64,000 nt of DNA from an uncultured Gemmatimonadaceae bacterium (GCA_963781585.1 CAWAGQ010000017.1:1-64000), one strand, 5' to 3'; numbered from the stretch's first letter, positions 206 to 61,163 are shown. The notes: a model not told the origin generated them from the letters alone. Made by a program: numbers and translations.

Positions 206-490
206 ATGAAGCGCCTTGCCGCCGCCGCGGCCCTTGCCGCCGCCGCCTTCGTCGCGTCATGCGACGACCAGCCTAACGCGAAACCCAAGGAGCCGCTGGC
301 TCCGCCCGCCCCGGTGGCGCAGAGTCTGAGCGCCATGCTGTCGGCGCGCGTGCATGCGACCACCGTATGCATGTCGTATCTCCGTGAGGGGACGCGGGTG
401 CAGGCGCGGCTGGTGCAGGCGCCGAAGGACACCGCACTCGTGAAGCGGGCGAACGCGCTGGCGATGATCATCGCCGACGCCTGTCAATAA
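206..490 (+). CDS. small putative lipoprotein, hypothetical
   Basis: MKRLAAAAALAAAAFVAS-C signal peptide with lipobox; RBS-like GGAG upstream; lies 11 bp before the giant surface protein. Confidence 0.65.
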   Translation: MKRLAAAAALAAAAFVASCDDQPNAKPKEPLAPPAPVAQSLSAMLSARVHATTVCMSYLREGTRVQARLVQAPKDTALVKRANALAMIIADACQ

Positions 491-501
491 CGGAGCCCGC
501 C

Positions 502-3500
502 ATGCGTTCCTTCTTTACGCGCGCCGCGTTCGCGGCGGCGGCGCTCGTGTGCGCTGCCATTCCGGTTCATGTGGCCGAGGGCCAGCGGGCTCTCGTGTAC
601 TGCCCGGTGGGGATCGACGATTCCGGGTGCAACACGGTGGTCAGTGCCCTTGGGCCCAACTTCCTTGGCGGCATCGACCGCGGGTACGATGGCAGCGGCG
701 GGACGATCGATCTCGCGACGGCCGATCTGGGTGCGTACGCTGTGTTCATCGTGCCGTCGCTGGCCGACGACGGGTCGGCGGCGCCGTACGGCAAGCTGCG
801 CGATCCGGCGATCGCGCAGCGGCTGCGTGCGGTGCTGCTCGGGCGCATGGCGTTCTGGTCCGGGACACCCGATCAGGGATCGAGCAGCCGGACGGAGAAG
901 GATCTGCTGATCCGGAATCTGGCGTCATTCGGCGGTTCCAACTACGCGAACGTGAACGCGCCGGGGCTGGTGGTGCTGCAGGATCAGTCGGCTGATGCCG
1001 CCGCGCGCTACGACTGGCTGCAGGGCGTGGCAGGAATTCAGGTGGTGGCCGACACCGCGCCTAACGTGTATTCGAGCGTGAAGGCGCTCGACCAGGCGGG
1101 AGCCGACGATTGTCGGGAGCGGCGCGCAGCTCGCCTACACCAACATGGCGTCGTACGGGTTCTATCTGCCGGGGGGAGGGGCCGGGGTGGCGTTGTCGGC
1201 GGTGGGGCAGACGGGGATCAACGTGGGTGGTCAGGTGGTGCTGGTCACGTCACAGGGCGGCGACCCGGGGACGGCGGCGATTCACACCGACAAGGCCGAC
1301 TATGCGCCAGGCGAGACGGTGACGATCACCGGGACCGGGTTCAAGCCTGGAGAGGCGGTATCGATCACGCTGCTCGAGGATCCCGAGTTCGATACGCATC
1401 CCGCACTTTCGGCGACGGCGGATGGGACCGGGCACTGGGTGAACACGCAGTTCTCGCCCGATGCGCACGACGTGGACATCCGGTTCATCGTGACGGCGTC
1501 GGGGGGTCAGGGGAGTGTGGCGCAGACGACGTTTACGGATGCGAAGCCGAACAAGGTCTTTGATGTAGGGCCGCAAGTACCTAGCCCCGTATCTGCAGGC
1601 AATGCTGCCACGTATTCCGTCCAGGTCTCGTTCAATGGGAATAGTGCGTCCTGCGATGCAGTTCTGAGCGTCTCCGCGTTACCCGCTGGCGCCAGTGCGT
1701 CATTTGCGCCTGTACCCGCGAGTAATCCCCCGAACACAATTACTAGCACCGGTCTACCTGTTGCGACAACGCTGACCGTCGGCACGACTGCGGGCACAAC
1801 GCCTGCGGACGCCTCGACATTTCGGATCACTGCAACTGGTACCAACCCGGCCTGTGTCAATGTGGCCGCATCAACGAATGCCGCTGGCAACGGGGGAACA
1901 GCTGCGGACCCGACTCTGGTGGTATCTGCAGCAAACCAGACGATCGCCGTGACAAGTCCGGCCCCTGCTTCGGCCAGCTACGGTTCGACTTTTCCCGTGG
2001 CAGCAACAGCGTCGTCCGGATTGGCCGTGGCAATCACAACCACCGGTGGTTGCAGCGGAGGCGGGTCGGCCAGCGCCACCATCACGATGACGAGCAGCAC
2101 TACCACGTGTGTGGTACGGTACGACCAGAACGGCAACGGGTTCTACAACCCGGCGCCGCAAGTGACTAGTACCACATTCGCCACGAAGGCCAATGCGACG
2201 ATCGTGGTGACGCCGTACCAGGTGACCTATGACGGGAACGCGCACACGGCAACCGGAACAGCCACGGGGGTGGGTGGGGTGGACCTGAATGCGAGTCTGG
2301 CGCTCACGGGGACGACGCACACGAACGCCGGGGACTATCCGAGCGACGCTTGGAGCTTCGCCGGGGGGGCGAACTACAACGACGCCAGCGGCACGGTCCA
2401 CGACATCATCGACAAGGCGGATGCGACGATCACCATCACGCCGTACCACGTGACGTACGATGGAAACGCGCACACGTCGACGGGGACAGCGACGGGGGTG
2501 GGTGGCGCGGACCTGAGCGGGCAGCTGATGCTCACCGGGACGACCCACACCGCCGCCGCCGACTACCCGAGCGATGGCTGGAGCTTCGCTGGGGGGACGA
2601 ACTACAACGACGCCAGTGGCACGGTGCACGACATCATCGACAAGGCGGATGCGACGATCAGCATCACGCCGTACCACGTGACGTACGATGGAAACGCGCA
2701 CACATCGACGGGGACAGCGACGGGCGTGGGCGGAGCGGACCTGAGCGCGAGTATGACGCTCACGGGGACGACGCATATGAATGCTGGGGACTATCCGAGC
2801 GATGCCTGGAGCTTCGCCGGGGGCACGAACTACAACGACGCGAGCGGTACGGTCCATGACATCATCGACAAGGCGAATGCGGCGATCTCGGTAACGCCCT
2901 ACAGCGTGACCTACGATGGCGCGGCGCACACGGCGACGGGAACCGCGACGGGCGTGGGTAGTGTGGACCTGAGCGGGCAGCTGACGCTCACGGGGACGAC
3001 GCATACGAATGCTGCGGACTATCCGAGCGATGCCTGGAGCTTCGCCGGGGGCACGAACTACAACGACGCGAACGGCACGGTCCACGACCTCATCGACAAG
3101 GCGAACGCGGTGATCGCGTGAGCCCCTACAGCGTGACGTACGACGGAGCGGCGCACACGGCGACGGGGAGCGCCACCGGGGTGCTGAGCGAGGCCTGAGT
3201 GGACTGGATCTCTCGGGGACGACGCACACCAACGCTGGCGACTATCCGACCGATCCGTGGACTTCGCGGACGTAACGGGGAACTACAACAACACGAGTGG
3301 GACCGCCACGACGCGATCGCCAGGGCGAACGCGGTGATCACCGTGACGCCCTACAGCGTGACCTACGATGGGGCGGCGCACACGGCGACCGGCAGCGCGC
3401 AAGGCGTATTGAACGAGAACCTGAGCGGCAGCTGGATCTACGGGGACGACCCACACGAATGCCGGGACGTACAACAGCGACGGGTGGAGCGTTCACCGGC

Positions 3501-7874: not shown

Positions 7875-9165
7875 CACCCGCACCACCTCCCCCGTCCGTG
7901 ACTCCCGCGGCGCCACCATCCCATCCCTCCGCAACCGCAACTCCCGCGAGTGCGTCAGATCGTCGAGAAACATCGCCTCGGCATGCGCGCCTAACGTGGG
8001 ATCCTCGATCACCGCGTCGAGCTCATAGTTCATCGTGATCCCCAACGGGTTGAAATCGGTCGACCCCACCCGCACCCAGCGCCCATCCACCACGCTGGTC
8101 TTGGCGTGCATCATCTCCCCACGCCACTCCCAGATCCGCACCCCGTTGCGCAGCAACGTGTGATACGAGCGCACCATGATGTTCCGCACCCAGAAATGAT
8201 CCCACCGGCTCGGCACCAGGATCCGCACATCCACGCCGTCGCGCGCCGCCCCCGCCAACGCCTCGATCTCATACTCTGACGGCGCGAAATAGGCGCTCGC
8301 GATCCAGATCGACCGCTCGGCCGCCACCGCCTGCATCTGGAGCGCCCGCGATACCCGGACCTTCCCGGGCTCCCCCTCGATGATCCCCACCAGCGACGGC
8401 GGATCGAACCGTGTGTTCAGGTACGAAGACTGCGGTGGCCGCACAAGCCGCCGCGGTCCCCGCGGCTTCCGGCCCTGCGACCGCACCCACATGTGCTCGA
8501 ATGCGGCGTGCATGTCCCGCACAGCGTCGCCCCGAATCAGCACACAGGTGTCGCGCCAGGGCGCGCGCCGTTTGCGCAGGATCCCCTTCTTCCATTCCAC
8601 CCCGATCCCGATCCCACCGGTGACTCCGATGCGGCCGTCCACCACCAGCATCTTGCGATGATCGCGCGGCAGGAGTCCCAGCCAACGACGGAATCCCGGC
8701 GGGATGGAATATCCGGAATTCGACCCCGGCCCGCTGGATCCGGCGAAAGAACGTCTTGCGCGTCGGCAGACGCCCGAACCAGTCGATCAGCATGCGGACC
8801 CGAACGCCACGCCGGGCCGCCGCGCTCAGTGATTTCGCGAACAGCTGGCCCACTTCATCGTCGTGGTAGATATACTGCTCGAAGTCCACCGTGGTCTGTG
8901 CCCCGTCGATCAACCCGAGCATGGCTTCGAACGTGGCCGACCCGGTGCTCAGCAGCGTCACCTGATTCCCGGCCGAAACGTTCGCCGACGCGATGCGCCA
9001 CAGCGCTCGGGAGAACGAGGGCCGCGGCCCCTGCTGAGCGGCGGCAAGTGGAGCGCCCGCGGCAGCGGGGTCGGTGCTGGCAAGTGGAGCCCCCGCGGCA
9101 GCGGGGTCGGTGCTGGCGCCTGCCGCGGTCGGATCGGTATTGGTGACGGCACGGCGGTTGGACAC
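7851..9165 (-). CDS. cls: cardiolipin synthase (phospholipase D family), with a frameshift at ~8702
   Basis: Two HKD motifs, DHRKMLVVD and [20 protein letters not shown] and YIYHDDEVG motifs. Removing one base from the GGG run at 8701-8703 joins ORFs 8269-9165 and 7851-8651. Confidence 0.88.
9043..9117. repeat. 36-bp tandem duplication in the cls N-terminus ([12 protein letters not shown] x2)
   Basis: Units 9043-9078 and 9079-9114 differ by one base. Confidence 0.8.
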
Positions 9166-9296: not shown

Positions 9297-10202
9297 ATGC
9301 TCTCGATCGATCTCACCGGCAAACGCGCCCTCGTCGCCGGCGTCGCCGACGACGGCGGCTTCGGCTTCGCCATCGCCAAGGCGCTGGCCGAAGCCGGCGC
9401 CACCGTCTGCGTCGGCACCTGGCCCCCCGCCCTCAACATCTTCCTCAACCTCATCGAGCGAGGCAAGCTCGATGAGTCACGGCGGCTCTCCAGCGGCCAG
9501 CTCCTCGCGTTCGAGCGGATCTACCCGCTCGACGCGGCCTTCGACCGTCTTGGAGACGCCCCCGACGACCTGCGCGCCAGCAAGCGGTACCGGGACGTCG
9601 GCGACTTCTCGATTGAGGGTCTCGCCGCCCGCCTAACGGCGGACTTCGGTTCCCCGGCCCTCGACATCATCGTCCATTCCCTGGCCAACGCCCCCGAGGT
9701 GAAGAAACCGCTCCTCGAAACATCGCGGTCGGGGTACCTGGCCGCTGTGAGCGTGAGCGCGTACTCGTTGACCGGGCTGCTGCAACGGCTGGGACCGCTC
9801 ATGCGCCCTGGCGGGTCCGTCGTCTCCCTGACCTACATGGCCAGCGAGCGCGCCATCCCCGGCTACGGCGGCGGCATGTCCTCCGCGAAAGCGGCGCTGG
9901 AGAGCGACACCCGGATGCTGGCCTTCGAAGCCGGACGCACCTGGGGAATCCGCGTGAACACGATCTCGGCCGGCCCGTATGCGTCGCGCGCCGCCAGCGC
10001 CATCGGCATCATCGAGCGGATGGTGGACTACTGCCGCGCGAACTCGCCCCTTCCGGAGGCGCTGACCAGCGCCGAGGTGGGATATGCCGCGGCATTCCTC
10101 TGCAGTCCCCTGGGCTCGGGCGTGACCGGCACCACGATCTACGTGGACAAGGGCTACCACGCGATGGGCATGGCCGTCGCGGCGCCGACCGACGCCGCCT
10201 AA
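9297..10202 (+). CDS. fabI: enoyl-ACP reductase, plant/Chlamydia-like type
   Basis: [65 protein letters not shown]. Confidence 0.92.
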
Positions 10203-10276
10203 CGACACACATAGTCTCGGCACGCCCCGCGGACGATGGGCCCGCCGGTCGGCCGCTTCACCAGGGATCTGGCTGG

Positions 10277-11882: not shown

Positions 11883-14153
11883 ATGAACACGCTTCTTGGC
11901 CGGATCCTCCTTTCTGTCGTGGCGATTCCACTCGTCCCGACCCCCGCCACCCAATCCGCACCCCTCCGCGGCTTCACCGCGGAGTCGACCGCGGCCGAGC
12001 GCGACTGGGAGGGGAAGTTTCGCGCCATCCCCGACACCGCGCGCCTCCGGGCCGCCCTCCAGAAGCTCTCGTCGCACCCGCACCACCTGGGCTCGCCTAA
12101 CGACAAGGCCAACGCCGAGTGGCTGCGCGACCAGTTCACGTCGTTCGGCTGGGACGCCCGCATCGACGAGTACCGGGTGCTCTTCCCCACGCCGAAGGAG
12201 CGCGTTCTCGAGCTCGTCGCGCCCGCGAAATTCGTCGCCCGCCTGGAGGAGCCGACGCTGAAGGAGGATCCGACCAGCGGCCAGAAGGCGGAGCAGCTCC
12301 CCAGCTACAATGCCTACTCGGCGGACGGAGACGTCACCGCGCCGCTGGTGTACGTGAACTATGGCGTACCGGCGGACTACGAGGAGCTGGAGCGCCTCGG
12401 CATCACGGTGCGCGGCGCAATCGTGATCGCGCGCTACGGCGGTTCGTGGCGCGGCATCAAGCCGAAGGTGGCGGCCGAACACGGCGCGGTGGGTTGCATC
12501 ATCTACTCCGACCCGCGCGACGACGGATACTTCCAGGGAGAGACGTATCCGGCCGGACCATGGCGTCCGAAGGACGGCGTGCAGCGCGGCAGCGTGCTCG
12601 ACATGCCGGTGGCGCCGGGCGATCCACTTACCGTGGGTGTGGGCGCCACGGCCGACGCGCCGCGGGTCGATCGCAGGGATGCGCCCACCATCATGAAGAT
12701 CCCCGTCCTGCCGATCTCGTATGGTGACGCCCAACCGCTGCTGGCCGCGATCGGCGGGCAGGTCGCCCCGGATTCATGGCGCGGGGCGCTGCCCATTACC
12801 TATCACCTGGGGCCGGGGCCGGCGCGGGTGCACCTGAAGCTGGCCTTCAACTGGGACCTCGTCCCCCTGTACGACGTGATCGCGACGCTCCGGGGCAGCG
12901 ACTTTCCCGATGAGTGGGTGATCCGCGGCAACCACCACGACGGCTGGGTGAATGGGGCGCAGGACCCGCTTTCGGGACTGGTGGCCGAGCTCGAGGAAGC
13001 CCGCGCATTCGGCGAACTGGTGAAGCAGGGGTGGCACCCCCGCCGGACGATTGTTTACGCGGCATGGGACGGCGAAGAGCCTGCACTGCTGGGATCCACC
13101 GAGTGGGTGGAGGCTCACGCCGAGGAGCTGAGCCAGAAAGCGGTGATGTACCTCAACAGCGACACGAACGATCGAGGCTATCTGGGGGTCGGCGGATCGC
13201 ACTCGCTCGAGCGGCTGGTGAACCAGGTGGCGCGGGACATCGTCGACCCGGAGACGAAGGTGTCGGTGTGGCGTCGCATGCAGGCGGGCCGGATCCGGGC
13301 CGGCGATGCCGCGCAGCGCCGGGAGGTGCGGGCCGGCGGTGATCTTTCGATCTCGGCGTTGGGGTCGGGGTCGGACTACACGCCGTTCCTGCAGCACCTG
13401 GGCATCGCCACGCTGAATATCGGATACGGCGGCGAGGACGGCGGCGGCATCTATCATTCGATCTACGATTCGTTCAACTGGTACACCCACTTCGGGGACA
13501 CGGCGTTCGTCTACGGCCGGGCGCTGTCGCAGACCGCCGGGACGTTCGTGATGCGGATGGCCGACGCCGACCTGCTGCCGCACGACTTCAATTCGCTGGC
13601 CGGGACGGTGCACGACTACCTGGGGCAGCTGAAGGCGCTGCGTGACGATATGGCGGCACGGGCGGTGGAGACGAACCGGGAGCTGGACAGCGGCGTGTTC
13701 GCGGAAACGGCAGATCCGCGGTTCCCGGAGAAGCCGCCGGCACGCGAAGCCGTGCCGCCGTTCCTGAATTTTGCGCCGATGGACAATGCGGTGGATTCCC
13801 TCACCCGCGCGGCCTCCCGGTTCGAACGGGCCTACACCGCCGCGTTAGGCAGCGGGCACCTGGACCGGCCGGGCGAAGCGGCGGTCAATGCGCTGCTGCG
13901 TTCCACCGAGCGCACACTGACCTCGCCGCAGGGGCTTCCGTTGCGGCCGTGGTACGAGCATCTCCTCTACGCGCCCGGCTACTACACCGGCTACGGCGTC
14001 AAGACGGTGCCGTCGGTCCGCGAGGCGATTGAACAGAAGGAGTGGCCGGCTGCCGATCGCGAGATCGTCCGGGTTGCGGACGCGCTGAAGCGGGCCGCGG
14101 AGCAGATCGCGCGGACGGCGGACCGGCTGGAAACCATCGCTCACAGGCCATAG
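11883..14153 (+). CDS. M28 glutamate carboxypeptidase II-like peptidase (PA domain, transferrin-receptor dimerisation domain)
   Basis: Signal peptide; LVYVNYG, GNHHDGW, GAQDPLSG, WDGEE, YLNSD, LGSGSDYTPF and YHSIYD motifs. Confidence 0.9.
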   Translation: MNTLLGRILLSVVAIPLVPTPATQSAPLRGFTAESTAAERDWEGKFRAIPDTARLRAALQKLSSHPHHLGSPNDKANAEWLRDQFTSFGWDARIDEYRVLFPTPKERVLELVAPAKFVARLEEPTLKEDPTSGQKAEQLPSYNAYSADGDVTAPLVYVNYGVPADYEELERLGITVRGAIVIARYGGSWRGIKPKVAAEHGAVGCIIYSDPRDDGYFQGETYPAGPWRPKDGVQRGSVLDMPVAPGDPLTVGVGATADAPRVDRRDAPTIMKIPVLPISYGDAQPLLAAIGGQVAPDSWRGALPITYHLGPGPARVHLKLAFNWDLVPLYDVIATLRGSDFPDEWVIRGNHHDGWVNGAQDPLSGLVAELEEARAFGELVKQGWHPRRTIVYAAWDGEEPALLGSTEWVEAHAEELSQKAVMYLNSDTNDRGYLGVGGSHSLERLVNQVARDIVDPETKVSVWRRMQAGRIRAGDAAQRREVRAGGDLSISALGSGSDYTPFLQHLGIATLNIGYGGEDGGGIYHSIYDSFNWYTHFGDTAFVYGRALSQTAGTFVMRMADADLLPHDFNSLAGTVHDYLGQLKALRDDMAARAVETNRELDSGVFAETADPRFPEKPPAREAVPPFLNFAPMDNAVDSLTRAASRFERAYTAALGSGHLDRPGEAAVNALLRSTERTLTSPQGLPLRPWYEHLLYAPGYYTGYGVKTVPSVREAIEQKEWPAADREIVRVADALKRAAEQIARTADRLETIAHRP

Positions 14154-17573: not shown

Positions 17574-20375
<2,802 letters not shown>

Positions 20376-49841: not shown

Positions 49842-49843
49842 CG

Positions 49844-51800: not shown

Positions 51801-54212
51801 TCAGTCGCTGCGAATCGCCTGCACCGGATCGACCCGCGCCGCACGCCGCGCCGGCAGCCAGCTGGACAGCAGCGCCGTGACCAGGAGGGCGAGCGACACC
51901 GCAGCATAGGTCCGGAGGTCGGTGGGGCTCACGCCGTAGACCAGGGTTCGCACCCCACGCGACACCGCGCCCGCCGCCATCACGCCTAACGCCACGCCCG
52001 CCAGCGCATAGATGACACCCTGGCGGAGCACCATCGCCGTCACACTGCTGCGGCCGGCGCCCAACGCAATGCGAATGCCGATCTCGCGCACCCGGCTGCT
52101 CACGGCATAGTTGACCACCCCGTACACACCCACGGCCCCCAGCGCGAGGCCGACCGCCGCGAACAGCGACAGCAGCAGCATGACCACCCGTCGCTGCGCC
52201 ACCGACGTCCAGACCAGACGCGAAAGTGGCTGAACATCCGAGATCGGTACTTGCGGCGAGATCGCGGCCACGCGCGCGTACACCGCACGGGCCAGCGCCA
52301 CCGGGTCGCCGGCGGTGCGGGCGACGATCGCCATCGCCCACTGCGGCATCTGCCGCTCGGAGACGTAGAACTCAGGGCGCGGCTCGTCGCTCAGCGCGGC
52401 GTAACGGACATCGCCGACCACCCCGACGATGGTGGCGGGGCGCGCCGTGGCCGGCGTACCGATGCGAATCCGCTTTCCCACGGCCGATTCACCCGGGAAC
52501 TCCTGCCGCGCGAACGTCGCGTTCACAAGCGCGACCAGCGGCGCCGTGGCGTCGTCGCGTACGTCGAAGTCGCGCCCCTCGAGCAGCCGGATCCCCATGG
52601 TGCGGAGGTAGTCGCCGGCAATGGTGCGCCACCCAGGACTGAACGGCGTCGCGCCGGGCACGGGCGGACGCCCGTCGATCTCCACCGTGTAGTGCCAGTC
52701 GAATCCGGTGAGCGGAAGGTGTTGGGTGGCACCGGCCGCAGTCACGCCCGGCACGGCGCGCACGCTGTCGATCACCGCGAGAAAATACCGCACGCGCTCT
52801 TCGGCACTCGCGAACCCCGCGCCGCTCGGCTGCACGCGCAGACTGAGGACATGATCGGCCCGGAACCCGGGATCGACGCGCGACAACCGCCACATGGTCT
52901 GGAGCATCAGGCCCGCGCCGATCACCAGCACCACCGCCAGGGCTACCTCCGCCACCACCAGACCGCTCCGCACGCCGCGGCCGAGCACGCCGCGCTCCCG
53001 CGCGCGCCCTCCCCGCAACGCCGGCTGCAGATCCTGCCGGCTGCCGAGCACCGCCGGCGCCAACCCGAACAGCAGGCCGATGCCTAACGTGACGGCGGCG
53101 CAGACGCCGAGCACGGGCCAGTCCACGGCAATCCCTGCCAGACGCGGCACGTCGGGCGGGAGCAGGCCCTTGAGCACCTTCACCCCGGCCACGCCCAGGG
53201 CGAGTCCCAGCAGGCCTCCGCCCAGCGCCAGCACCACCGACTCGATCAGCATCTGCGCAACGATCCGCCGCCGGCTGGCGCCGATCGCGCTCCGGACGGC
53301 CATCTCCAGATGACGGCCGCCGGCGCGCGCCAGCAGCAGATTGCCCACGTTGGCGCCGGCGATGAGGACGATGAATCCCACCGCGCCGAGGAGCACGAGC
53401 AGCATCGGCCGCATCGATCCGACCAGCGAGTCCCGCAGCGAGACAATGGTGAAATCGGCGCCGTACCGATCCGGGAAGTTGAACGTGCGCCGCAGATCAG
53501 GAACAAGGGACTGGAATTCGTCGGCCGCGGTGCGCGCCGTCGCGCCGCTCACCAGCCGGCCGACCAGCAGCGCCACGCTCGCCGTGTAGAACCGGGCTGC
53601 GGGATCGATCTCGAGCGGCAGCCAGATCTGCGCATCCTGCTGGAAGATCGAGAACCCCGCCGGCATCACGCCGATGACCGTGCGCGTCTCCCCGTCGAGC
53701 ACGATCGACCGGCCGACGACGGTCGAGTCACCGCCGAACTGCGAGACCCACAACTCGTGACTGAGTACCGCCACACCGGGCGTGCCGGGAGCGGACTCGC
53801 CGCTGGCAAACGTGCGGCCGAGCAGCGGCTTCGCGCCCAGGACCGCAAAGAAGTTGGTGGACGTTCGCGCCCCGGAGAGCTGCACCGCCCGGTCCGGAAA
53901 CGACAGGGCGATCCCCCACCCCGGACTGAACGACGCGATCTTCCCGTCGTAGCTGCGCGCATGCTGCTGGAGATAGTCCAGCTCGGCGGCCGACGTGAAG
54001 TGGCCCGGCCACACCGCCACGAGTCTGGACGGCGCGGGGTACGGCAGCGGCGAAAGGAGGATGCCGTTCACCGCGCTGAACACCGCGGTGTTCACCCCGA
54101 TGCCGAGGGCAAGGGTCGCGAGCGCCACGGTGGTGAAGGCCGGTGCGCGACGCAGGGTGCGCAGGGCGAAGCGGACGTCCTGTCGGAGGTGGTCGAGGCT
54201 GACGGAGCGCAT
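51801..54212 (-). CDS. ADOP/MacB-FtsX family duplicated ABC permease
   Basis: QDVRFALRTL, GVNTAVFS, ANVGNLLLAR, REIGIRIALGA, PARRAARVDP. Confidence 0.9.
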   Translation of the reverse strand: MRSVSLDHLRQDVRFALRTLRRAPAFTTVALATLALGIGVNTAVFSAVNGILLSPLPYPAPSRLVAVWPGHFTSAAELDYLQQHARSYDGKIASFSPGWGIALSFPDRAVQLSGARTSTNFFAVLGAKPLLGRTFASGESAPGTPGVAVLSHELWVSQFGGDSTVVGRSIVLDGETRTVIGVMPAGFSIFQQDAQIWLPLEIDPAARFYTASVALLVGRLVSGATARTAADEFQSLVPDLRRTFNFPDRYGADFTIVSLRDSLVGSMRPMLLVLLGAVGFIVLIAGANVGNLLLARAGGRHLEMAVRSAIGASRRRIVAQMLIESVVLALGGGLLGLALGVAGVKVLKGLLPPDVPRLAGIAVDWPVLGVCAAVTLGIGLLFGLAPAVLGSRQDLQPALRGGRARERGVLGRGVRSGLVVAEVALAVVLVIGAGLMLQTMWRLSRVDPGFRADHVLSLRVQPSGAGFASAEERVRYFLAVIDSVRAVPGVTAAGATQHLPLTGFDWHYTVEIDGRPPVPGATPFSPGWRTIAGDYLRTMGIRLLEGRDFDVRDDATAPLVALVNATFARQEFPGESAVGKRIRIGTPATARPATIVGVVGDVRYAALSDEPRPEFYVSERQMPQWAMAIVARTAGDPVALARAVYARVAAISPQVPISDVQPLSRLVWTSVAQRRVVMLLLSLFAAVGLALGAVGVYGVVNYAVSSRVREIGIRIALGAGRSSVTAMVLRQGVIYALAGVALGVMAAGAVSRGVRTLVYGVSPTDLRTYAAVSLALLVTALLSSWLPARRAARVDPVQAIRSD

Positions 54213-55302: not shown

Positions 55303-56408
55303 GAGCCGCCCCTGCTGCCTAACGGTTTATCGAGCAGCTTGCCCACGATCGCCCGGGTCTGCCGGGCGGCGCCCGCCACCTGATCGGCTTTCAATACCCG
55401 CAGCAGGTCCACGGTGAGCAGGAGCGATTTCCGGCGCACGCCGGTGGCGTCGCGCCGCCAGAGCAGGCCGGCGGTCCCGAGCGTGGTGACCCGCACCAGC
55501 GGCCCGCGGCCGATGCGGCCGTCGGCGTCATAGGCCAGCACCCACGACGCACCGAGGTGGTGCTTCCAGCCGCCGAACCACACCGTGACGCCGCCCGTCT
55601 CGACCGACAGCGACTGCTTCTCGGCGATCCGGTTGTCCCGGCGAGCCAGCTCGACGCCGGCAAACGGATGGAACACCACCAGATCGACGCGCGACGGATG
55701 GAATCGGGCGTCGCCGTTCCGCCCGATCCAGCCGCGGAGGAGCCGGTTCAGCGCCAGCTCATGCACCAGCTGACCCGGGCCGTTTGCCCGGTAGCGTTCC
55801 CATTCCCGGGCCAGCTCGCTGATCTGCGCCAGCGCTCCCGGTACGGTCTCGTAATTGACGCCGCCTAACAAGCGACTCACCGACCGGCTGGCCCAGCAGA
55901 CGCCTTCGGCCTCGTCCGGCCTGAGCGAATCCGACACCACCAGGCCCAGTGGTCGGGTCGCCTGGTCGACCTGGAGAATGCGCCAGCCGCCGTTCATGTC
56001 CTGAAACGGCTCGAACTGCAGGTACGCGTGCTCGTGCAGCGCGGTGGCGCGGGCTGCAAGACCCAGCTGCAGCACGCCGGGCAACCGATCGAGCACCTGG
56101 CCGAGTGCATCCTGGAACGTCTGGTCGAGCGCGGTGAACTGCGGCGTCGGCTGACGGCGTTCCAGACTGTCGAAGGTCGTCGCGATATCCGTCTGCAACG
56201 CGCGCAGCACCTCCATCCACTGCCTCGCCGCGATAGTCTCACCATAACGTGACTCGACCCGTGCGGGATGCAGCAGAACCGCGGGCGCATCGGCGCGCGG
56301 CGGCCCGGCGTTGCACGCGATGTCCACCTGAGCCGACGCGCCACGCGATGCGCCGAGAAAAAGCAGGGCGGCCGCGCCGGCGCGTCGACCCGTCGCCCGC
56401 GCGGTCAT
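55299..56408 (-). CDS. hypothetical secreted protein (helical N-terminal part, beta-rich C-terminal part)
   Basis: Signal peptide ending ASA-Q; ATGA overlaps with both neighbours. Confidence 0.7.
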   Translation of the reverse strand: MTARATGRRAGAAALLFLGASRGASAQVDIACNAGPPRADAPAVLLHPARVESRYGETIAARQWMEVLRALQTDIATTFDSLERRQPTPQFTALDQTFQDALGQVLDRLPGVLQLGLAARATALHEHAYLQFEPFQDMNGGWRILQVDQATRPLGLVVSDSLRPDEAEGVCWASRSVSRLLGGVNYETVPGALAQISELAREWERYRANGPGQLVHELALNRLLRGWIGRNGDARFHPSRVDLVVFHPFAGVELARRDNRIAEKQSLSVETGGVTVWFGGWKHHLGASWVLAYDADGRIGRGPLVRVTTLGTAGLLWRRDATGVRRKSLLLTVDLLRVLKADQVAGAARQTRAIVGKLLDKPLGSRGGS

Positions 56409-57699: not shown

Positions 57700-60192
57700 A
57701 TGCAGGTGCTTCAGCCGCTTCGCCACGCCTGGAGATCGCTCCGGCGCACGCCGGCATTCACGCTCACGGCCACGACCACGCTCCTGATCGGCATCGGGGC
57801 GGCCGTCGCGACGTTTGCCGTGGTGAACGGAGTGCTGCTTCGGCCCCTTCCGTTCGGCCATCCGGATCGCCTGGTGGGCGCGTGGCACGATCTCCCGCCC
57901 CTTGGGCTGAAGCACACCCAGCAGACGTCCGCCACCTACTTCACCTACCAGAAGCTCGCCCACACCATCGAGGGCATCGGGGTCTACCAGGAGGGCGCGG
58001 TGAACGTGGCGCCTCCTGGCGACGCGTCACAGCCTCAGCGGCTCAGCTGCTCCTGGATTTCGGCGACGCTGATTCCGGTTCTCGAGGTCCGGCCCGCCAT
58101 GGGACGCGTGTTCACCGCGGCGGAAGATCTCCCGAACGGGCCCCACGTCGTGATCATCAGCGACGCGCTGTGGCACAACGCGTTCGGCGGCGATCCGCAA
58201 ATAGTGGGTCGCACCATGGACGTGAACGGGCTCACGCGGCAAATCGTGGGGGTGATGCCGCCGACGTTCCGTTTTCCGGCCACCGAGACGCAGCTGTGGC
58301 TTCCGCTGGGTCTTGATCCGGCCAGTCCGTTCCCCGGCGGGTTCAACTACAACGGCATCGCGCGGCTGAAGCCCGGAGTGACGGTGGCCGCGGCGCAGCG
58401 GGATTTCACCGCCGTGTTGCCCCGGATCGTCGAGCTGTCGCCGAACCTGGCGCCCGGTGTATCGACCCGGATGCTGCTCGATCAGGCCAAGCCGACTCCG
58501 CTGCTGGTGCCGTTTCGACAGGACATCGTGGGCGAGTTTTCGGGCACGCTCTGGACGGTGGCCGCGGCGGCCGGGCTGGTTCTCCTGGTTGCCTGCTTCA
58601 ATGTCGCGAACCTGATTCTGGTTCGTGCCGACAGTCGCCAGCGCGAGCTCGCGGTTCGGGAGGCGTTAGGCGCCGGGCGGCTGCGCGTGCTGGCGCACTT
58701 CCTGGCCGAAGCGGTCGTGCTGGCGTCGGTGGCCGGTGCCGGGGGCCTGGCGGTGGCCTGGGTGGCGGTGCGGCTGCTGGTGGCGCGCGGCGCGAACGCA
58801 GGGCAGGGGGTGTCGATCCCCCGACTCGCGGAGCTGGGGATCGACGCCAGGGCGGTGCTGTTCACGCTGGCGCTGGTGGTCCTGGTGGCCGTGATATGCA
58901 GCGTGATCCCGGCGCTCCGGATCGGCCGGGGGCAGCTGGCAACCGCGTTGCGCGAGGGGGGACGCACCGGCACCGCGAGCCGGCTGCAGCACCGCATCCG
59001 GGGCGGGCTGGTGGCCGGACAGATCGCGCTGGCCCTGGTGGTGCTGTCGGGGTCGGGTCTTCTCCTGCGGACGTTCCAGCGCCTCCACGCCGTGCAGCTC
59101 GGCTTCGATCCGGGCCAGGTCGCGACGTTCTGGCTGTCGCTGCCGCGGGCGCGCTACGCGAACGACACGGCGATCGTCCATTTCTTCTCGGAGCTCCGAG
59201 CGCGCGTCACGTCATTGCCGGGAGTCCGCGCAGCGGGACTGTCGTCGCGGCTTCCCCTGCAGGGGAACGGGATGAACCAGAATCCCTTCTATGCCGAGGG
59301 CGACGTCTCGGCGGCGTCGAAGATCCCACCGCTCCAGATCTACACCACGGTGGATGACGCGTACTTTCACGCGATGGGGATTCCCCTGCTCGCGGGACGC
59401 GGGTTCGACCGCGCCGATCTCCAGCGTCCGGACGAAGCGATCGTCAGCCAGCGGACCGCCGAGCAGTTCTGGAAGGACCCGACCGGCCGGGCCGCGTTAG
59501 GCAGGCGGTTCCGCGAGCTGCCGGGCGGGCACTGGCATACGGTGATCGGCGTGGTCGCCAATGCGCGCGACACGGCCATCGCCGCGCTCCCGTCCCAGGT
59601 CGTGTACTTTCCGGAAGTCATCGATCCGGACACCACGTTCAGCCAGACCTACCGGGCGATGGCCCTGGTGGTGCGCACCACGGGCGATCCGATGGCGGTC
59701 ACCGGGCCGGTCCAGGCGCTGGTGCGGGAGCTCGATCCTACTCTGCCCATGTTCGACATCCGGCCCATGACCGCGGTGGTGAGTGCCTCGGTAGCCCGCC
59801 TTTCGTTCATCATGCTCATTCTGGGGGCCGCCGCGGGGGTCACCCTCCTGCTCGGCGCGGTGGGGCTGTATGGGGTGATGGCGTACCTGGTCACGCTTCG
59901 CACGCGCGAACTGGGTGTGAGGATCGCGCTGGGCGCGCAGCCGGGTGCAGTGGCGACGATGCTCACGCGACAGGGGATGTGGCTGACGGCGATCGGCATC
60001 GGCGGCGGGCTGGCGCTGTTCCTGGGCGTCTCGCGTTTCCTGGGGTCGTTCCTCTACGGGGTGACGCCGACCGATCCGGTCACGCTCGGCGCGGCGTCGC
60101 TGATGCTGGTGGTGATCGCGGCGCTGGCGAGCTGGATTCCGGCGCGGCGCGCATCGCGGGTGGATCCGGCGCACACGCTCCGGGCGGAGTAG
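57700..60192 (+). CDS. ADOP/MacB-FtsX family duplicated ABC permease
   Basis: LRHAWRSLRRTPAF, ACFNVANLILVR, RELGVRIALGA, PARRASRVDP. Confidence 0.9.
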   Translation: MQVLQPLRHAWRSLRRTPAFTLTATTTLLIGIGAAVATFAVVNGVLLRPLPFGHPDRLVGAWHDLPPLGLKHTQQTSATYFTYQKLAHTIEGIGVYQEGAVNVAPPGDASQPQRLSCSWISATLIPVLEVRPAMGRVFTAAEDLPNGPHVVIISDALWHNAFGGDPQIVGRTMDVNGLTRQIVGVMPPTFRFPATETQLWLPLGLDPASPFPGGFNYNGIARLKPGVTVAAAQRDFTAVLPRIVELSPNLAPGVSTRMLLDQAKPTPLLVPFRQDIVGEFSGTLWTVAAAAGLVLLVACFNVANLILVRADSRQRELAVREALGAGRLRVLAHFLAEAVVLASVAGAGGLAVAWVAVRLLVARGANAGQGVSIPRLAELGIDARAVLFTLALVVLVAVICSVIPALRIGRGQLATALREGGRTGTASRLQHRIRGGLVAGQIALALVVLSGSGLLLRTFQRLHAVQLGFDPGQVATFWLSLPRARYANDTAIVHFFSELRARVTSLPGVRAAGLSSRLPLQGNGMNQNPFYAEGDVSAASKIPPLQIYTTVDDAYFHAMGIPLLAGRGFDRADLQRPDEAIVSQRTAEQFWKDPTGRAALGRRFRELPGGHWHTVIGVVANARDTAIAALPSQVVYFPEVIDPDTTFSQTYRAMALVVRTTGDPMAVTGPVQALVRELDPTLPMFDIRPMTAVVSASVARLSFIMLILGAAAGVTLLLGAVGLYGVMAYLVTLRTRELGVRIALGAQPGAVATMLTRQGMWLTAIGIGGGLALFLGVSRFLGSFLYGVTPTDPVTLGAASLMLVVIAALASWIPARRASRVDPAHTLRAE

Positions 60193-60209
60193 ACCGCGTG
60201 ATTGCGCCC

Positions 60210-61163
60210 ATGGCTTCCTCAGCCGCCGGGCGCCCGGTGATCGAGGTCAACGGCTGCCGCAAGACGTACGGCTCCCTGGTCGCGGTCGACGACGTGTCGT
60301 TCACCGTGAACGACGGCGAGATCTTCGGGCTGATCGGGCCTAACGGGGCCGGCAAGACGACGACCATGGAATGCGTCGAAGGCCTGCGCGCCCCCGACCG
60401 CGGCGCCATCATGGTGCTGGGACTCGATCCATTCCGCGACGTCTATCAGCTGCAGGAGCGCATCGGCGTGCAGCTGCAGCAGGCGCAGCTGCAGAAGCGG
60501 ATCACGGTGCTGGAGGCGGTTCACCTGTGGGCCGCGCTGTACCGCCACGCGCCGACCGATGGAGAACGCCTGCTCGAACAGCTCGGCCTGTGGGAGAAGC
60601 GGCACTCCTGGTTCATGACACTCTCCGGCGGTCAGAAGCAGCGGCTGTTCATCGCGCTCGCGCTGGTCAACGATCCGGAAGTGGTGTTCCTCGACGAGCT
60701 GACCACCGGGCTCGATCCGCAGGCACGGCGTGCCATCTGGGAACTGGTGCGGGCAATCCGCGATCGCGGCAAGACGGTGTTTCTGACCACGCATCTGATG
60801 GAAGAGGCGGAGCGGTTGTGCGATCGGGTGGCGATCATCGAGCGTGGACGCATCATCGATATCGACACGCCGGCCGGCATGGTGCGGCGCCACTGCCCGG
60901 AGCGCAGCGTCGTCCTCGCGACTGCGGCGCCCGGCGCCGAGGGCTGCTTCCGTACCATCCCGAACACCGATATGGTGGAAAGAGAAGAGAGCAGCGACGG
61001 AGAGCCGGCGCGCTACACCATCCGCGGTCATGGCGACGATCTGGTGACCGACGTGATCCAGTGTCTCTCCGACAATCGGATTCGCGTGACCGAGTTCCGC
61101 ACCATAATCCCGACGCTGGAGGATGTCTTCCTCCGGCTCACCGGGCACTCCATCCGCGATTAG
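60210..61163 (+). CDS. ABC-2 type transporter ATP-binding protein
   Basis: GPNGAGKT, LSGGQKQR, FLDELTTGLDP and TTH motifs. Confidence 0.93.
   Translation: MASSAAGRPVIEVNGCRKTYGSLVAVDDVSFTVNDGEIFGLIGPNGAGKTTTMECVEGLRAPDRGAIMVLGLDPFRDVYQLQERIGVQLQQAQLQKRITVLEAVHLWAALYRHAPTDGERLLEQLGLWEKRHSWFMTLSGGQKQRLFIALALVNDPEVVFLDELTTGLDPQARRAIWELVRAIRDRGKTVFLTTHLMEEAERLCDRVAIIERGRIIDIDTPAGMVRRHCPERSVVLATAAPGAEGCFRTIPNTDMVEREESSDGEPARYTIRGHGDDLVTDVIQCLSDNRIRVTEFRTIIPTLEDVFLRLTGHSIRD

What the first reader, a model, noticed from the sequence alone, without database searches (positions are those of the whole stretch)
271..60345. Dispersed, over-represented octamer RCCTAACG/CGTTAGGY: candidate undescribed genome-wide DNA signal
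Seen: I counted 27 exact copies of CCTAACG or its reverse complement by eye. Plus strand: 272, 1060, 7990, 9632, 10198, 12096, 16836, 19746, 22835, 25051, 31819, 43310, 51985, 53083, 55318, 60339. Minus strand: 13843, 18061, 18712, 21277, 25788, 32571, 36342, 37407, 38299, 58664, 59495. Of these, 24 extend to GCCTAACG and 3 to ACCTAACG. A rough zero-order estimate at ~69% GC gives only ~2-3 GCCTAACG in 64 kb over both strands, and TAA/TTA/CTA look rare elsewhere. The motif is read as CCT-AAC (Pro-Asn, including the ABC Walker A GPNG), CTA-ACG (Leu-Thr), TTA-GGC (Leu-Gly, using a TTA codon rare at this GC), the fabI stop codon, and once intergenically. Inference: selection or a mutational drive acts on the DNA, not the peptide. 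It is non-palindromic and only weakly strand-biased (16:11), unlike HIP1, Chi or KOPS. It could be a DNA-uptake-like sequence, a modification or repair target, or a nucleoid-protein site.
Basis: partly seen in the sequence, partly recalled or inferred. Interest (0 to 1): 0.8.

Follow-up and report, generated by a model that had tools for sequence, protein, structure and literature searches.

The report
Hyper-abundant GCCTAACG word in soil bacteria
A single 8-letter DNA word is written about 20 to 60 times more often than expected, at protein-neutral spots inside genes, in some Gemmatimonadaceae (including a cultured strain) and in an unrelated soil Verrucomicrobiota bacterium; it spells the integron core recombination site, and what reads it is unknown.

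Summary
All 27 CCTAACG copies sit at the stated coordinates (24 GCCTAACG, 3 ACCTAACG; 16 plus, 11 minus). Dinucleotide shuffles give 2.7 copies and synonymous-codon shuffles give 1.5. Of 16 TTA codons, 13 lie inside the word.

The word recurs elsewhere. Gemmatirosa kalamazoonensis KBS708 carries 778 copies on its 1.1-Mb plasmid 1 (0.70/kb, about 20 times expectation), and plasmid 2 is similar. A Gemmatimonadaceae MAG has 1.13/kb. A Chthoniobacterales/Udaeobacter-like Verrucomicrobiota MAG has 1.19/kb, extended to tGCCTAACGAst. The other 77 related loci (1.14 Mb) hold it at 0.03/kb.

Copies use every stop-free frame, show almost no replication polarity, and avoid each other within 400 bp. They are rarer in low-GC DNA and are not conserved in position between orthologues. 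The published SMRT methylome of KBS708 lists no methylated motif matching it.

The word is an exact instance of the integron attC inverse-core/core site (RYYYAAC/GTTRRRY). KBS708 carries a complete integron with about 84 attC sites whose commonest R box is this 8-mer.

Best reading: a USS/DUS-like self tag kept up by biased transmission. The reader protein is unknown. Integron-linked, 5mC-repair and Chi-like readings remain open.

The parts
271..278 (+). GCCTAACG copy; in ORF 173-490 (+), read CAG-CCT-AAC-GCG (P-N)
1059..1066 (+). GCCTAACG copy; gene model uncertain (ORF 502-1563 + would read CCT-AAC)
7989..7996 (+). GCCTAACG copy; antisense in the cardiolipin-synthase-like gene 7851-8651 (-), read ACG-TTA-GGC (T-L-G)
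9631..9638 (+). GCCTAACG copy; in fabI-type enoyl-ACP reductase 9240-10202 (+), read CGC-CTA-ACG (R-L-T)
10197..10204 (+). GCCTAACG copy; its TAA (10200-10202) is the stop codon of the fabI-type gene
12095..12102 (+). GCCTAACG copy; in M28/transferrin-receptor-like peptidase 11730-14153 (+), read TCG-CCT-AAC (S-P-N); the Gemmatirosa orthologue has T-A-A here
13843..13850 (-). GCCTAACG copy (CGTTAGGC on +); same gene, read GCG-TTA-GGC (A-L-G)
16835..16842 (+). ACCTAACG variant; in M20 peptidase 15355-17442 (+), read CAC-CTA-ACG (H-L-T)
18061..18068 (-). GCCTAACG copy; in Ser/Thr kinase 17574-20375 (+), read TCG-TTA-GGC
18712..18719 (-). GCCTAACG copy; same kinase, read GCG-TTA-GGC
19745..19752 (+). 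GCCTAACG copy; same kinase, read GTG-CCT-AAC
21277..21284 (-). GCCTAACG copy; sense in M20-peptidase-like ORF 20828-22408 (-), read GCG-CCT-AAC
22834..22841 (+). GCCTAACG copy; antisense in enolase-superfamily (menC-like) gene 22117-23253 (-), read TCG-TTA-GGC
25050..25057 (+). GCCTAACG copy; in Ser/Thr kinase 24077-27142 (+), read CGC-CTA-ACG
25788..25795 (-). GCCTAACG copy; same kinase, read TCG-TTA-GGC
31818..31825 (+). GCCTAACG copy; antisense in Ser/Thr kinase 29775-32462 (-), read TCG-TTA-GGC
32571..32578 (-). ACCTAACG variant; upstream of the listed start (32462) of the kinase gene, inside its stop-to-stop frame; possibly intergenic (divergent region 32463-32633)
36342..36349 (-). ACCTAACG variant; in HerA-like ATPase 36227-37813 (+), read ACG-TTA-GGT
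37407..37414 (-). GCCTAACG copy; same ATPase, read TCG-TTA-GGC
38299..38306 (-). GCCTAACG copy; gene model uncertain (two overlapping ORFs without a family hit)
43309..43316 (+). GCCTAACG copy; in ORF 43016-44362 (+), read CTG-CCT-AAC
51984..51991 (+). GCCTAACG copy; antisense in ADOP permease 51801-54212 (-), read GCG-TTA-GGC (A741-L742-G743); the Gemmatirosa orthologue has GCG-CTC-GGC
53082..53089 (+). GCCTAACG copy; same ADOP, read ACG-TTA-GGC (T-L-G); the Gemmatirosa orthologue has ACG-CTC-GCG
55317..55324 (+). GCCTAACG copy; antisense near the 3' end of ORF 55299-56420 (-), read CCG-TTA-GGC
58664..58671 (-). GCCTAACG copy; in ADOP permease 57661-60192 (+), read GCG-TTA-GGC
59495..59502 (-). 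GCCTAACG copy; same ADOP, read GCG-TTA-GGC
60338..60345 (+). GCCTAACG copy; in ABC ATPase 59979-61163 (+), Walker A GGG-CCT-AAC-GGG-GCC-GGC-AAG (GPNGAGK)

Best explanation
YGCCTAACG is a DNA-level 'self' word. Resident DNA of these genomes holds it at roughly one copy per 1-2.5 kb, and the force behind it is a transmission bias rather than protein or codon selection.

The most likely mode of action resembles the uptake sequences of Pasteurellaceae and Neisseriaceae. A sequence-specific protein reads the word in double-stranded DNA in either orientation. Fragments or alleles that carry the word are taken up, kept or copied preferentially during DNA exchange or recombinational repair. New copies therefore spread by gene conversion wherever the protein tolerates them, and they decay by mutation.

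Shown here: the enrichment, its independence from reading frame, its presence on several replicons and in several genomes, the turnover of positions, the spacing, and the depletion in atypical DNA.

Inferred: the bias itself and its link to DNA uptake or recombination. No reader protein was identified.

The identity of the word with the integron R box may mean that the specificity was seeded from, or is shared with, the resident integron's attC repeats. That step is speculative.
For: (1) Enrichment. Window: 27 copies against 2.7 and 21 against 1.5 under synonymous shuffling. Gemmatirosa plasmid 1: 778 against 38.9. A 50-kb piece of plasmid 2: 30. L045: 16 in 14.2 kb. L050: 17-18 in 15.1 kb.

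(2) All four stop-free frames are used. On plasmid 1: NCG-TTA-GGC 282, NNG-CCT-AAC-G 161, NNC-GTT-AGG-C 54, NGC-CTA-ACG 37. Rare codons are accepted: 13 of 16 TTA codons lie in the word.

(3) Both strands are used, with at most 61:39 local bias. Copies are spread evenly along genes.

(4) Positions turn over. Two orthologue pairs (59% and 63% amino-acid identity) hold 4 window copies and 4 Gemmatirosa copies, and 0 of these 8 are shared. Several sit at amino-acid differences.

(5) Copies avoid each other. Window: minimum gap 566 bp (P=0.0006) and 0 gaps under 400 bp against 4.0 expected. Plasmid 1: 105 gaps under 400 bp against 159 expected, with 0 of 1000 simulations as low.

(6) Density rises with local G+C, from 0.20-0.42/kb below 0.70 to 0.8/kb above 0.74, although the word is AT-richer than the genome. 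Cassette DNA of the integron holds 3 copies against 24 expected. This is as expected if long-resident DNA accumulates copies.

(7) One-off variants that are transitions are moderately enriched: GCCCAACG 151/32, GCCTGACG 132/55, GCCTAACA 77/15.

(8) A dialect-like extension occurs in the Verrucomicrobiota locus (A 18/18, G/C 17/18, T 14/18 after the core).
Against: No competence, uptake or recombination data exist for these organisms in what I read, and no receptor or competence gene was found in the window.

Known uptake sequences are lineage-specific, whereas here the same core occurs in two phyla. It is also missing from relatives as close as Gemmatirosa: L001, with 59% ADOP identity, has 0 copies in 15.9 kb.

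Inverted pairs acting as terminators, common for DUS/USS (my knowledge), are not seen in the window. On plasmid 1 the 88-90-bp inverted pairs are attC sites.

The spacing, GC and turnover results are equally expected under a repair ratchet. The match to the integron core site is not predicted by this reading.
Confidence: 0.38

Rival explanations
1. Integron-linked. The word is the R box (inverse core RYYYAAC / core GTTRRRY) read by an integron integrase or a relative. The dispersed copies would be isolated integrase half-sites or secondary (attG-like) sites, whose abundance is tied to cassette capture, cassette genesis or integrase titration.
For: GCCTAAC and GTTAGGC are exact instances of the published consensus. 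GCCTAAC is the R'' of attC(aadB) (passages read in PMC3053210 and PMC12901181).

Gemmatirosa plasmid 1 carries an integron integrase (TIGR02249, 423 bits, cut-off 265). Next to it are 84 co-oriented attC-like hits with an R stem, an unpaired spacer, two bulged bases, a variable loop and 9 compensatory pairs.

The commonest R boxes are exactly GCCTAACG (26 of 84) and CGTTAGGC (28 of 84). The tail after each R' is complementary to the next R''.

A universal core site would explain why the same word appears in two phyla, both reported to carry integrons (PMC8618304 passage). Cassette ORF DNA is depleted of the word (3 against 24), as expected if internal R boxes are harmful there.
Against: Dispersed copies have no L box, spacer, bulges or partner. 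The covariance model finds 0 hits in the window, L045 or L050 at E<=1.

The R boxes of the array vary freely at positions 1-3 (GGC 14, GTC 13, ACC 5). Over the whole plasmid, GGCTAACG (30/27.5) and GTCTAACG (35/25.4, attC copies included) are not enriched. The dispersed word is therefore far stricter than what the integrase tolerates.

Integrase recognition of attC is described as largely structural, with only the AAC triplet marked as conserved (PMC12614218 passages). Off-target integrase activity is reported as costly (PMC3681742, abstract in listing only), which predicts avoidance rather than 20-fold enrichment. No enrichment mechanism is known.
Confidence: 0.2
2. Methylation-directed repair ratchet, of the kind proposed for HIP1 in cyanobacteria. 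A horizontally mobile methyltransferase (here it would have to be 5mC) marks the word, and a nicking or mismatch-repair activity biases repair towards it. Copies would accumulate to about 1/kb as a by-product.
For: The distribution is patchy and not clade-wide, and density saturates near 1/kb. Both features were described for alternate HIPs that track methyltransferases (Elhai 2015, PMC4390886; abstract and section 3.4 read).

A mobile enzyme would explain the same word in two phyla. The strongest decay-type variant is GCCTAACA, which equals TGTTAGGC: 77/15 on plasmid 1, 4/0.5 in L050 and 1/0.3 in the window. That is the product expected if the first C of CGTTAGGC were 5mC and deaminated.
Against: The SMRT methylome of KBS708 reports only m6A motifs (RGATCY, ATGCAC, CCAGN7TCA), each more than 99% modified (PMC3974934, whole text read). 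The adenines of the word are therefore not methylated there.

The word is not palindromic, so it cannot mark both daughter duplexes. tblastn with E. coli Dcm and Vsr found nothing at E<=0.01 in plasmid 1, 50 kb of plasmid 2, the window, L045 or L050. This covers only about 1.15 Mb of a 7.5-Mb genome.
Confidence: 0.15
3. Chi-like recombination hotspot. An 8-mer recognised by the resident RecBCD/AddAB-type enzyme protects and recombines self DNA, and is therefore over-represented.
For: The length (8 nt), the over-representation and the occurrence inside genes fit. There is a slight excess of the G-rich orientation CGTTAGGC on the strand with positive GC skew: 100 of 163 copies in 0-250 kb, with the opposite tendency (206 of 371) in 250-800 kb.
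Against: Polarity is at most 61% locally, and the totals are 374:404. The other sources give 16:11, 7:9 and 7:11. Chi and KOPS are strongly co-oriented with replication (about 75% and above 85% in E. coli; my knowledge). A bias this weak is what gene-strand bias combined with the frame preference would give. Enzyme specificity shared across two phyla yet absent from close relatives is unlikely.
Confidence: 0.07
4. Binding word of an abundant nucleoid-associated or chromosome-organising protein, kept at regular density by selection for chromosome architecture.
For: The word is orientation-independent, more evenly spaced than random and present on all replicons examined.
Against: To my knowledge, no known nucleoid protein needs thousands of exact 8-9-bp non-palindromic sites. 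Selection per site would be far too weak to fix rare codons and amino-acid changes. The patchy, cross-phylum distribution is unexplained.
Confidence: 0.07

Closest known systems
Uptake signal sequences: USS of Pasteurellaceae (AAGTGCGGT core) and DUS of Neisseriaceae (GCCGTCTGAA core)
   Same: A short non-palindromic word at about 1/kb on both strands, mostly inside genes, in several reading frames and at protein-tolerant positions. One-off variants are moderately enriched, flanks differ between lineages like dialects, and atypical DNA is depleted. The USS copy number and sequence are cited from a passage in PMC5217627. The DUS dialect paper PMC3630211 was seen as a search listing only.
   Different: No evidence of competence or of a receptor. 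The same core occurs in two phyla, yet it is absent from several members of the same family. It is not used as inverted-repeat terminators. It coincides with the integron core site.
HIP1 (GCGATCGC) and alternate HIPs of cyanobacteria
   Same: Hyper-abundance of 15-300-fold (PMC5861425, abstract start in listing), density near 1/kb, and sporadic occurrence of alternative words. The over-representation may be a by-product of repair rather than a selected function (PMC4390886, section 3.4).
   Different: HIPs are palindromes tied to identified methyltransferases. This word is asymmetric, and SMRT data for KBS708 show no modification motif matching it.
Integron attC core site (R' GTTRRRY) and inverse core site (R'' RYYYAAC)
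   Same: Letter-for-letter instance: GTTAGGC / GCCTAAC. In Gemmatirosa the commonest R box of the resident cassette array is the full 8-mer.
   Different: An attC site is a 57-141-bp imperfect palindrome with L boxes, a spacer, extrahelical bases and a variable loop, located in cassette arrays. The dispersed copies are isolated 8-9-mers inside ordinary genes, and none matches the attC covariance model.
Chi (GCTGGTGG in E. coli) and KOPS/SRS polar octamers
   Same: Over-represented 8-mers inside genes.
   Different: Those are strongly polar with replication (my knowledge). This word is nearly symmetric (374:404) and, by my recollection of Chi at about 1 per 4.5 kb in E. coli, roughly 2-5 times denser.

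Membership tests
DNA uptake sequences (USS/DUS) | Short word hyper-abundant (hundreds to thousands of copies, about 1/kb) on both strands of the genome | tested here: met
   0.42/kb in the window, 0.70/kb over 1.106 Mb of Gemmatirosa plasmid 1, 1.13 and 1.19/kb in L045 and L050; strands 374:404
DNA uptake sequences (USS/DUS) | DNA-level constraint: copies in several reading frames, not explained by codon usage or peptide | tested here: met
   Synonymous shuffle gives 1.5 against 21 observed; four frames used
DNA uptake sequences (USS/DUS) | Competent cells preferentially take up DNA carrying the word; a cognate receptor exists (ComP-type minor pilin in Neisseria) | not testable with these tools
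   No experiment possible. No pilin or competence gene in the window. The chromosomes of the enriched genomes could not be fetched.
DNA uptake sequences (USS/DUS) | Shared by a whole family by descent, with dialects | tested here: inconclusive
   Present in 4 sources (window, L045, Gemmatirosa, L050). Nine other Gemmatimonadota loci (157 kb) hold only 3 copies, all in L006. The extension in L050 looks like a dialect.
DNA uptake sequences (USS/DUS) | Frequent inverted pairs forming terminators | tested here: not met
   No two window copies lie closer than 566 bp. The 88-90-bp inverted pairs on plasmid 1 are attC sites.
Chi / KOPS / SRS polar motifs | Strong co-orientation with replication, switching at origin and terminus | tested here: not met
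   Largest regional bias 100:63; totals 374:404. The replichore assignment rests on weak GC skew only.
HIP-type iterated palindromes | Palindromic word | tested here: not met
   GCCTAACG is not its own reverse complement (sequence)
HIP-type iterated palindromes | A methyltransferase of matching specificity in the genome | tested here: inconclusive
   The published SMRT methylome of KBS708 has no matching m6A/m4C motif. 5mC is not assessed there. No Dcm or Vsr homologue in about 1.2 Mb searched.
Integron attC recombination site | R'' RYYYAAC and R' GTTRRRY boxes | tested here: met
   GCCTAAC and GTTAGGC fit the consensus quoted
Integron attC recombination site | Imperfect palindrome of 57-141 bp with L boxes, unpaired central spacer, extrahelical bases and variable terminal structure; located after cassette ORFs in an array | tested here: not met
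   Model R1, built on 10 Gemmatirosa attC sites, finds 84 sites in the plasmid array but 0 in the window, L045 or L050 at E<=1. The flanks of dispersed copies show no conservation.
REP / MITE-type dispersed repeats | Element of 20 bp or more, mostly intergenic, often hairpin-forming | tested here: not met
   Conservation ends at 9 nt (12 nt in L050), and 23-26 of 27 window copies lie inside ORFs

The most novel reading that the evidence does not exclude
GCCTAACG is the first uptake/self-recognition sequence outside Proteobacteria. It would operate in two dominant but barely cultured soil lineages, Gemmatimonadaceae and Udaeobacter-like Verrucomicrobiota. Its specificity would derive from the integron attC R box, so that every cassette end doubles as an uptake or recombination tag and natural transformation is mechanistically coupled to cassette exchange. 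The word at 1/kb in ordinary genes could also supply the integrase-compatible sites from which new cassettes are made.
Probability: 0.15. Interest if true: 0.92.

Novelty: new variant of a known kind. Interest (0 to 1): 0.8.

Why it matters
Hyper-abundant short words (USS/DUS, Chi, HIP1) are rare windows onto how bacteria tell self DNA from foreign DNA and how recombination shapes genomes. They are known from only a few groups.

This word occurs in Gemmatimonadaceae and in an Udaeobacter-like bacterium, both from lineages abundant in soil whose genetics is nearly unknown. One carrier, G. kalamazoonensis KBS708, is cultured and fully sequenced, with deposited SMRT kinetics. Uptake, binding and methylation tests can therefore be done directly.

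The word can serve as a marker of resident versus recently acquired DNA in these genomes, and as a binning or host-assignment signal in soil metagenomes.

Its identity with the integron core site raises a testable link to the unsolved question of how gene cassettes arise. A 2021 review still lists cassette formation as an open question (PMC8618304 passage).

I found no description of the word. Whole-word searches for GCCTAACG and CGTTAGGC returned 0 papers. The 7-mer and 6-mer searches returned only telomere, primer and attC contexts among the papers listed: 25 of 67, 15 of 147, and 20 of 27.

Tried and rejected
1. Maximal-order Markov ranking hid the word, because its own sub-words absorb the signal. 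It was replaced by order 2-4 models.

2. Other top k-mers (AACTACAAC, TACAGCGTG, CCCTACAG) were rejected as dispersed signals. They belong to one tandem-repeat gene.

It returned neither the source genome nor the 74%-identical relative (P0003, 4.2-Mb contig), so orthologous synonymous sites in close relatives stayed unchecked.

4. A sequencing or assembly artefact was rejected. The word is enriched in a MEGAHIT-named MAG contig (L045), in a PacBio-finished genome (Gemmatirosa) and in a further MAG (L050). It also encodes the residues expected from homologues: Walker A GPNGAGKT, and T-L-G / A-L-G shared with the 74% relatives.

5. DNA editing or deamination of CCAGG-type sites was considered and rejected for the same reason.

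6. Alternative 'dialect' words in the other 77 loci: a per-locus 8-mer screen found nothing comparable. The AAAAGCAGG/CAGGACAG signal in L032 is partly a hairpin-type repeat, not a clean dispersed word.

7. GGACTGAA on plasmid 1 (120 against 6.5) is an 11-bp tandem cluster, not a second dispersed word.

8. The window holds no methyltransferase, Vsr, pilin, competence gene or integrase.

9. Dcm/Vsr tblastn was negative over about 1.2 Mb. This is uninformative for the unseen chromosome.

10. The 21-kb phage-like element of KBS708 could not be fetched: accession not in the collections.

11. Synteny between the window and Gemmatirosa plasmid 1 is minimal. Only two probable orthologue pairs were usable.

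12. Occupancy of protein-compatible sites in the window: CG-TTA-GGC 12 of 47, CCT-AAC 3 of 8, CTA-ACG 2 of 31, GTT-AGG 1 of 34. The order does not follow mutational distance, and I could not explain it.

Full report
OBSERVATION. Dinucleotide-preserving shuffles give 2.72 +/- 1.63 (maximum 6). Twenty-four copies extend to GCCTAACG against 1.02 expected, and three are ACCTAACG. Under order-2 and order-3 Markov models GCCTAACG is the top dispersed 8-mer (24 against 0.5-0.8), and TGCCTAACG occurs 12 times against 0.1. The other top k-mers (AACTACAAC, TACAGCGTG, CCCTACAG) are not dispersed. Eighteen of 19 ACTACAA copies and all TACAGCGTG copies lie in a tandem repeat of about 228 bp at 2373-6386.

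CODON-AWARE NULL. I built 34 gene models (49,446 nt) from GC3-supported ORFs checked against NCBIfam and Pfam. They hold 21 copies. Three hundred shuffles of synonymous codons within each gene give 1.48 +/- 1.16 (maximum 5), and 300 shuffles of codon order give 1.14 (maximum 4). Thirteen of 16 in-frame TTA codons lie inside the word, and a fourteenth is the one-off TG-TTA-GGC.

The frames in the window are as follows:
- CG-TTA-GG: 14 copies.
- CCT-AAC: 6 copies plus 2 in uncertain ORFs, including the Walker A GPNGAGKT of an ABC ATPase.
- CTA-ACG: 4 copies.
- The TAA stop of the fabI-type gene: 1 copy.

In the ADOP permease 51801-54212 the encoded T-L-G and A-L-G are shared with the closest homologues (74%). 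There the word is a synonymous spelling of an ordinary peptide.

WHOSE GENOME. The window encodes three ADOP duplicated permeases, an acidobacterial-type PadR, three large Ser/Thr kinases, a fabI-type reductase, a phosphoketolase and an acetate kinase. The best named homologues of one ADOP are Gemmatimonadaceae, with Gemmatirosa kalamazoonensis at 59%. The window's own contig is 82,468 bp.

RELATIVES. It returned 79 loci (1,173,805 bases) from Gemmatimonadota, Acidobacteriota and others.

Seventy-seven loci (1,144,523 bases) hold 39 CCTAACG and 19 GCCTAACG copies in total, about 0.03/kb. Two loci stand out:
- L045, a Gemmatimonadaceae MAG: 16 copies in 14.2 kb.
- L050, labelled Verrucomicrobiae: G+C 0.587 and 18 CCTAACG copies, 17 of them GCCTAACG, in 15.1 kb.

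The closest named homologues of an L050 protein (77-78%) are Chthoniobacterales and Candidatus Udaeobacter. This supports the phylum label independently. In L050 the word is longer: after CCTAACG come A (18/18), G or C (17/18) and T (14/18), and a T-rich position precedes it.

L001, as close to the window as Gemmatirosa by ADOP identity (59%), has no copy in 15.9 kb. Nine Gemmatimonadota loci without the signal (157 kb) hold 3 copies, all in L006. A per-locus screen found no alternative word of comparable strength elsewhere.

A CULTURED CARRIER. A tblastn search of PLSDB found the ADOP orthologue on plasmid 1 of G. kalamazoonensis KBS708. The first 50 kb fetched held 32 copies. I then fetched the whole plasmid apart from its last 234 bases.

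- It holds 778 GCCTAACG copies (374 plus, 404 minus) in 1,105,999 bases, or 0.70/kb at G+C 0.727. The order-3 Markov expectation is 38.9.
- A 50-kb piece of plasmid 2 holds 30 copies.
- The base before the word is C in 360 copies, T in 263, G in 131 and A in 24.
- With crude GC3 gene models the frames are NCG-TTA-GGC 282, NNG-CCT-AAC-G 161, NNC-GTT-AGG-C 54 and NGC-CTA-ACG 37. Copies are spread evenly along genes. 244 of 778 copies fall outside the models, and 53 of those are in attC sites.

POLARITY. By 50-kb bins the strand ratio is 63:100 in 0-250 kb, 206:165 in 250-800 kb and 105:139 in 800-1106 kb. This roughly follows the weak GC skew. The other sources give 16:11, 7:9 and 7:11. This is far from the polarity of Chi or KOPS (my knowledge). 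It is what gene-strand bias combined with the frame preference would give.

DYNAMICS.
- Positions are not conserved. In the ADOP pair (58% identity in my alignment) the window has the word at L376 and L742, where Gemmatirosa has CTC. Gemmatirosa has it at the family-invariant A-L-G 716-718, where the window has GCG-TTG-GGC. In the M28-peptidase pair (63%) the window has 2 copies and Gemmatirosa 3, none shared. Several sit where the proteins differ, for example A-I-G against A-L-G and T-A-A against S-P-N. Across both pairs, 0 of 8 sites are shared.
- Copies avoid one another. In the window the minimum gap is 566 bp (P=0.0006 by simulation), and there are 0 gaps under 400 bp against 4.0 expected. 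On plasmid 1, with the integron excluded, there are 105 gaps under 400 bp against 159 expected, and 0 of 1000 simulations were as low. L050 and the plasmid 2 piece do not show this on their own.
- Density rises with local G+C, from 0.20-0.42/kb below 0.70 to about 0.8/kb above 0.74. Six of the nine gaps over 6 kb have G+C of 0.65-0.71, against 0.727 for the whole plasmid.
- Among one-off variants only some transitions are enriched: GCCCAACG 151/32, GCCTGACG 132/55 and GCCTAACA 77/15. Changes at positions 1-3 are at or below expectation.

These properties fit a balance between ongoing creation and decay in resident DNA. They do not fit conservation of particular sites.

METHYLATION. I read the whole genome announcement of KBS708. 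It reports three m6A motifs by SMRT sequencing (RGATCY, ATGCAC, CCAGN7TCA), each more than 99% modified, and no other motif (PMC3974934). The adenines of the word are therefore not methylated in that strain. 5mC is poorly seen by that method (my knowledge) and stays open. tblastn with E. coli Dcm and Vsr found nothing in plasmid 1, the plasmid 2 piece, the window, L045 or L050. The 5.3-Mb chromosome could not be examined.

THE INTEGRON COINCIDENCE. Listing close pairs on plasmid 1 showed ten inverted pairs 88-90 bp apart, all within 814-847 kb.

- Their alignment folds into a terminal stem made of GCCTAACG and CGTTAGGC, a 5/4-nt unpaired spacer, a second stem with two single-base bulges and a variable loop. 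Nine pairs show compensatory change.
- This is the architecture described for attC sites: R and L boxes, unpaired central spacer, extrahelical bases and variable terminal structure (passages in PMC12614218).
- A covariance model built on the ten finds 84 co-oriented sites from 810.8 to 856.2 kb plus two near 881 kb, at a median spacing of 515 bp. It finds none in the window, L045 or L050.
- The tail after each R' is complementary to the R'' of the next site, the hallmark of cassettes.
- A 319-aa integron integrase (TIGR02249, 423 bits against a cut-off of 265) lies 650 bp beyond the array, co-oriented with it.
- The published consensus is R'' RYYYAAC and R' GTTRRRY, and GCCTAAC is the R'' of attC(aadB) (passages in PMC3053210 and PMC12901181). 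The dispersed word is thus an exact instance of the integron inverse-core/core site plus one base.
- In the array the full 8-mer is the commonest R box (26 and 28 of 84), but positions 1-3 vary freely (GGC 14, GTC 13, ACC 5). Those variants are not enriched on the plasmid as a whole (30/27.5 and 35/25.4, attC copies included).
- Cassette DNA outside attC sites (36.5 kb) holds 3 copies against 24 expected at the plasmid's mean density (P about 1e-7).

WEIGHING.

The word is real, acts on DNA and is genome-wide in a scattered set of genomes from two phyla.

- The properties that can be measured are those of uptake sequences: density, symmetry, frame promiscuity, tolerance of rare codons and of amino-acid change, turnover, mutual avoidance and depletion in atypical DNA. 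I take a USS/DUS-like transmission bias as the best single reading (0.38). However, no step of uptake or recombination has been shown, and the same data fit a repair ratchet.
- The integron match is unlikely to be pure chance. Roughly 0.2% of 7-mers fit the full consensus, and about 8% contain YAAC in some register (my estimates). A universal core site would also explain the recurrence in two phyla, both reported to carry integrons (PMC8618304 passage). Against this, the dispersed word is stricter than the array's own R boxes, it lacks every other attC feature, and no mechanism is known by which an integrase would enrich it. I give this reading 0.20.
- A 5mC-dependent HIP-like ratchet gets 0.15. 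The patchy distribution, the 1/kb ceiling and the excess of TGTTAGGC favour it. The asymmetry of the word and the SMRT result count against it.
- Chi-like gets 0.07 and nucleoid-protein readings get 0.07.

WHAT STAYED UNCHECKED. I could not examine the source genome beyond the window, the 74% relative, the KBS708 chromosome or its 21-kb element. The claim that the word is undescribed rests in the open-access library only.

Noticed in passing
window 1145-7657 (+): A large gene made of about 17 tandem repeats of roughly 228 bp (76 aa; YDG domain hit in the last part). It is broken into at least five overlapping ORFs in different frames (1145-3121, 3841-4581, 4559-5290, 5256-5855, 5771-7657). This is either a decayed adhesin-like gene or indel errors in a repeat-rich assembly. 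The region has lower G+C (0.65-0.66) and no copy of the word between 1066 and 7989.
   Followed up: partly
L097:10834 to L098:7786 (Gemmatirosa kalamazoonensis plasmid 1, about 810.8-857.8 kb): A complete integron on the megaplasmid. There are 84 co-oriented attC sites (two of them outliers near 881 kb) at a median spacing of 515 bp, and an integron integrase (TIGR02249, 423 bits) co-oriented with the cassettes. A probable attI junction GCGTTAGCC lies at about L098:6555-6563. I did not check whether it has been catalogued.
   Followed up: partly
Gemmatirosa plasmid 1, many places (for example clusters of 2-4 units): The 11-bp unit GGACTGAAGRA occurs in short tandem clusters (120 copies of GGACTGAA against 6.5 expected; median gap 11 bp). 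Its function is unknown. The window has 2 copies of the 8-mer.
   Followed up: partly
Gemmatirosa plasmid 1, 12144-18189 and 65204-71249: Two identical 6,045-bp stretches free of the word, with G+C 0.647, lie 53 kb apart. They match the 53-kb tandem duplication mentioned in the genome paper and look like foreign DNA inside it.
   Followed up: no
window 36227-37813 (+) and 44442-44900 (+): A HerA-like ATPase (PF05872, E 1.5e-187) and, 6.6 kb away, a protein of the 'endonuclease related to archaeal Holliday junction resolvase' family (PF10107). No link to the word was found.
   Followed up: no
window 47397-51674: A phosphoketolase (1485 bits) lies convergent with an acetate kinase. The whole 8.7-kb stretch 43316-51984 is the longest in the window without a copy of the word.
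   Followed up: no
L050:5039-7430: One ADOP-type permease in the Verrucomicrobiota locus is split over three overlapping ORFs. This is either a frameshifted pseudogene or long-read indel errors.
   Followed up: no
L032 (Acidobacteriaceae MAG), for example 15395-15420: AAAAGCAGG and CAGGACAG are 10-fold over-represented (13 against 1.1, 10 against 0.8). At least one pair of hits (15395/15403) forms an AAAAGCAGGAC...GTCCTGCTT hairpin. It is not a clean dispersed word.
   Followed up: partly
L006 (Gemmatimonadaceae MAG SMAG_U16423): Three GCCTAACG copies in 22.5 kb, where about 0.3 would be expected. One sits at the conserved ADOP N-terminal A-L-G-I-G. This may be a weak or relict enrichment.
   Followed up: no
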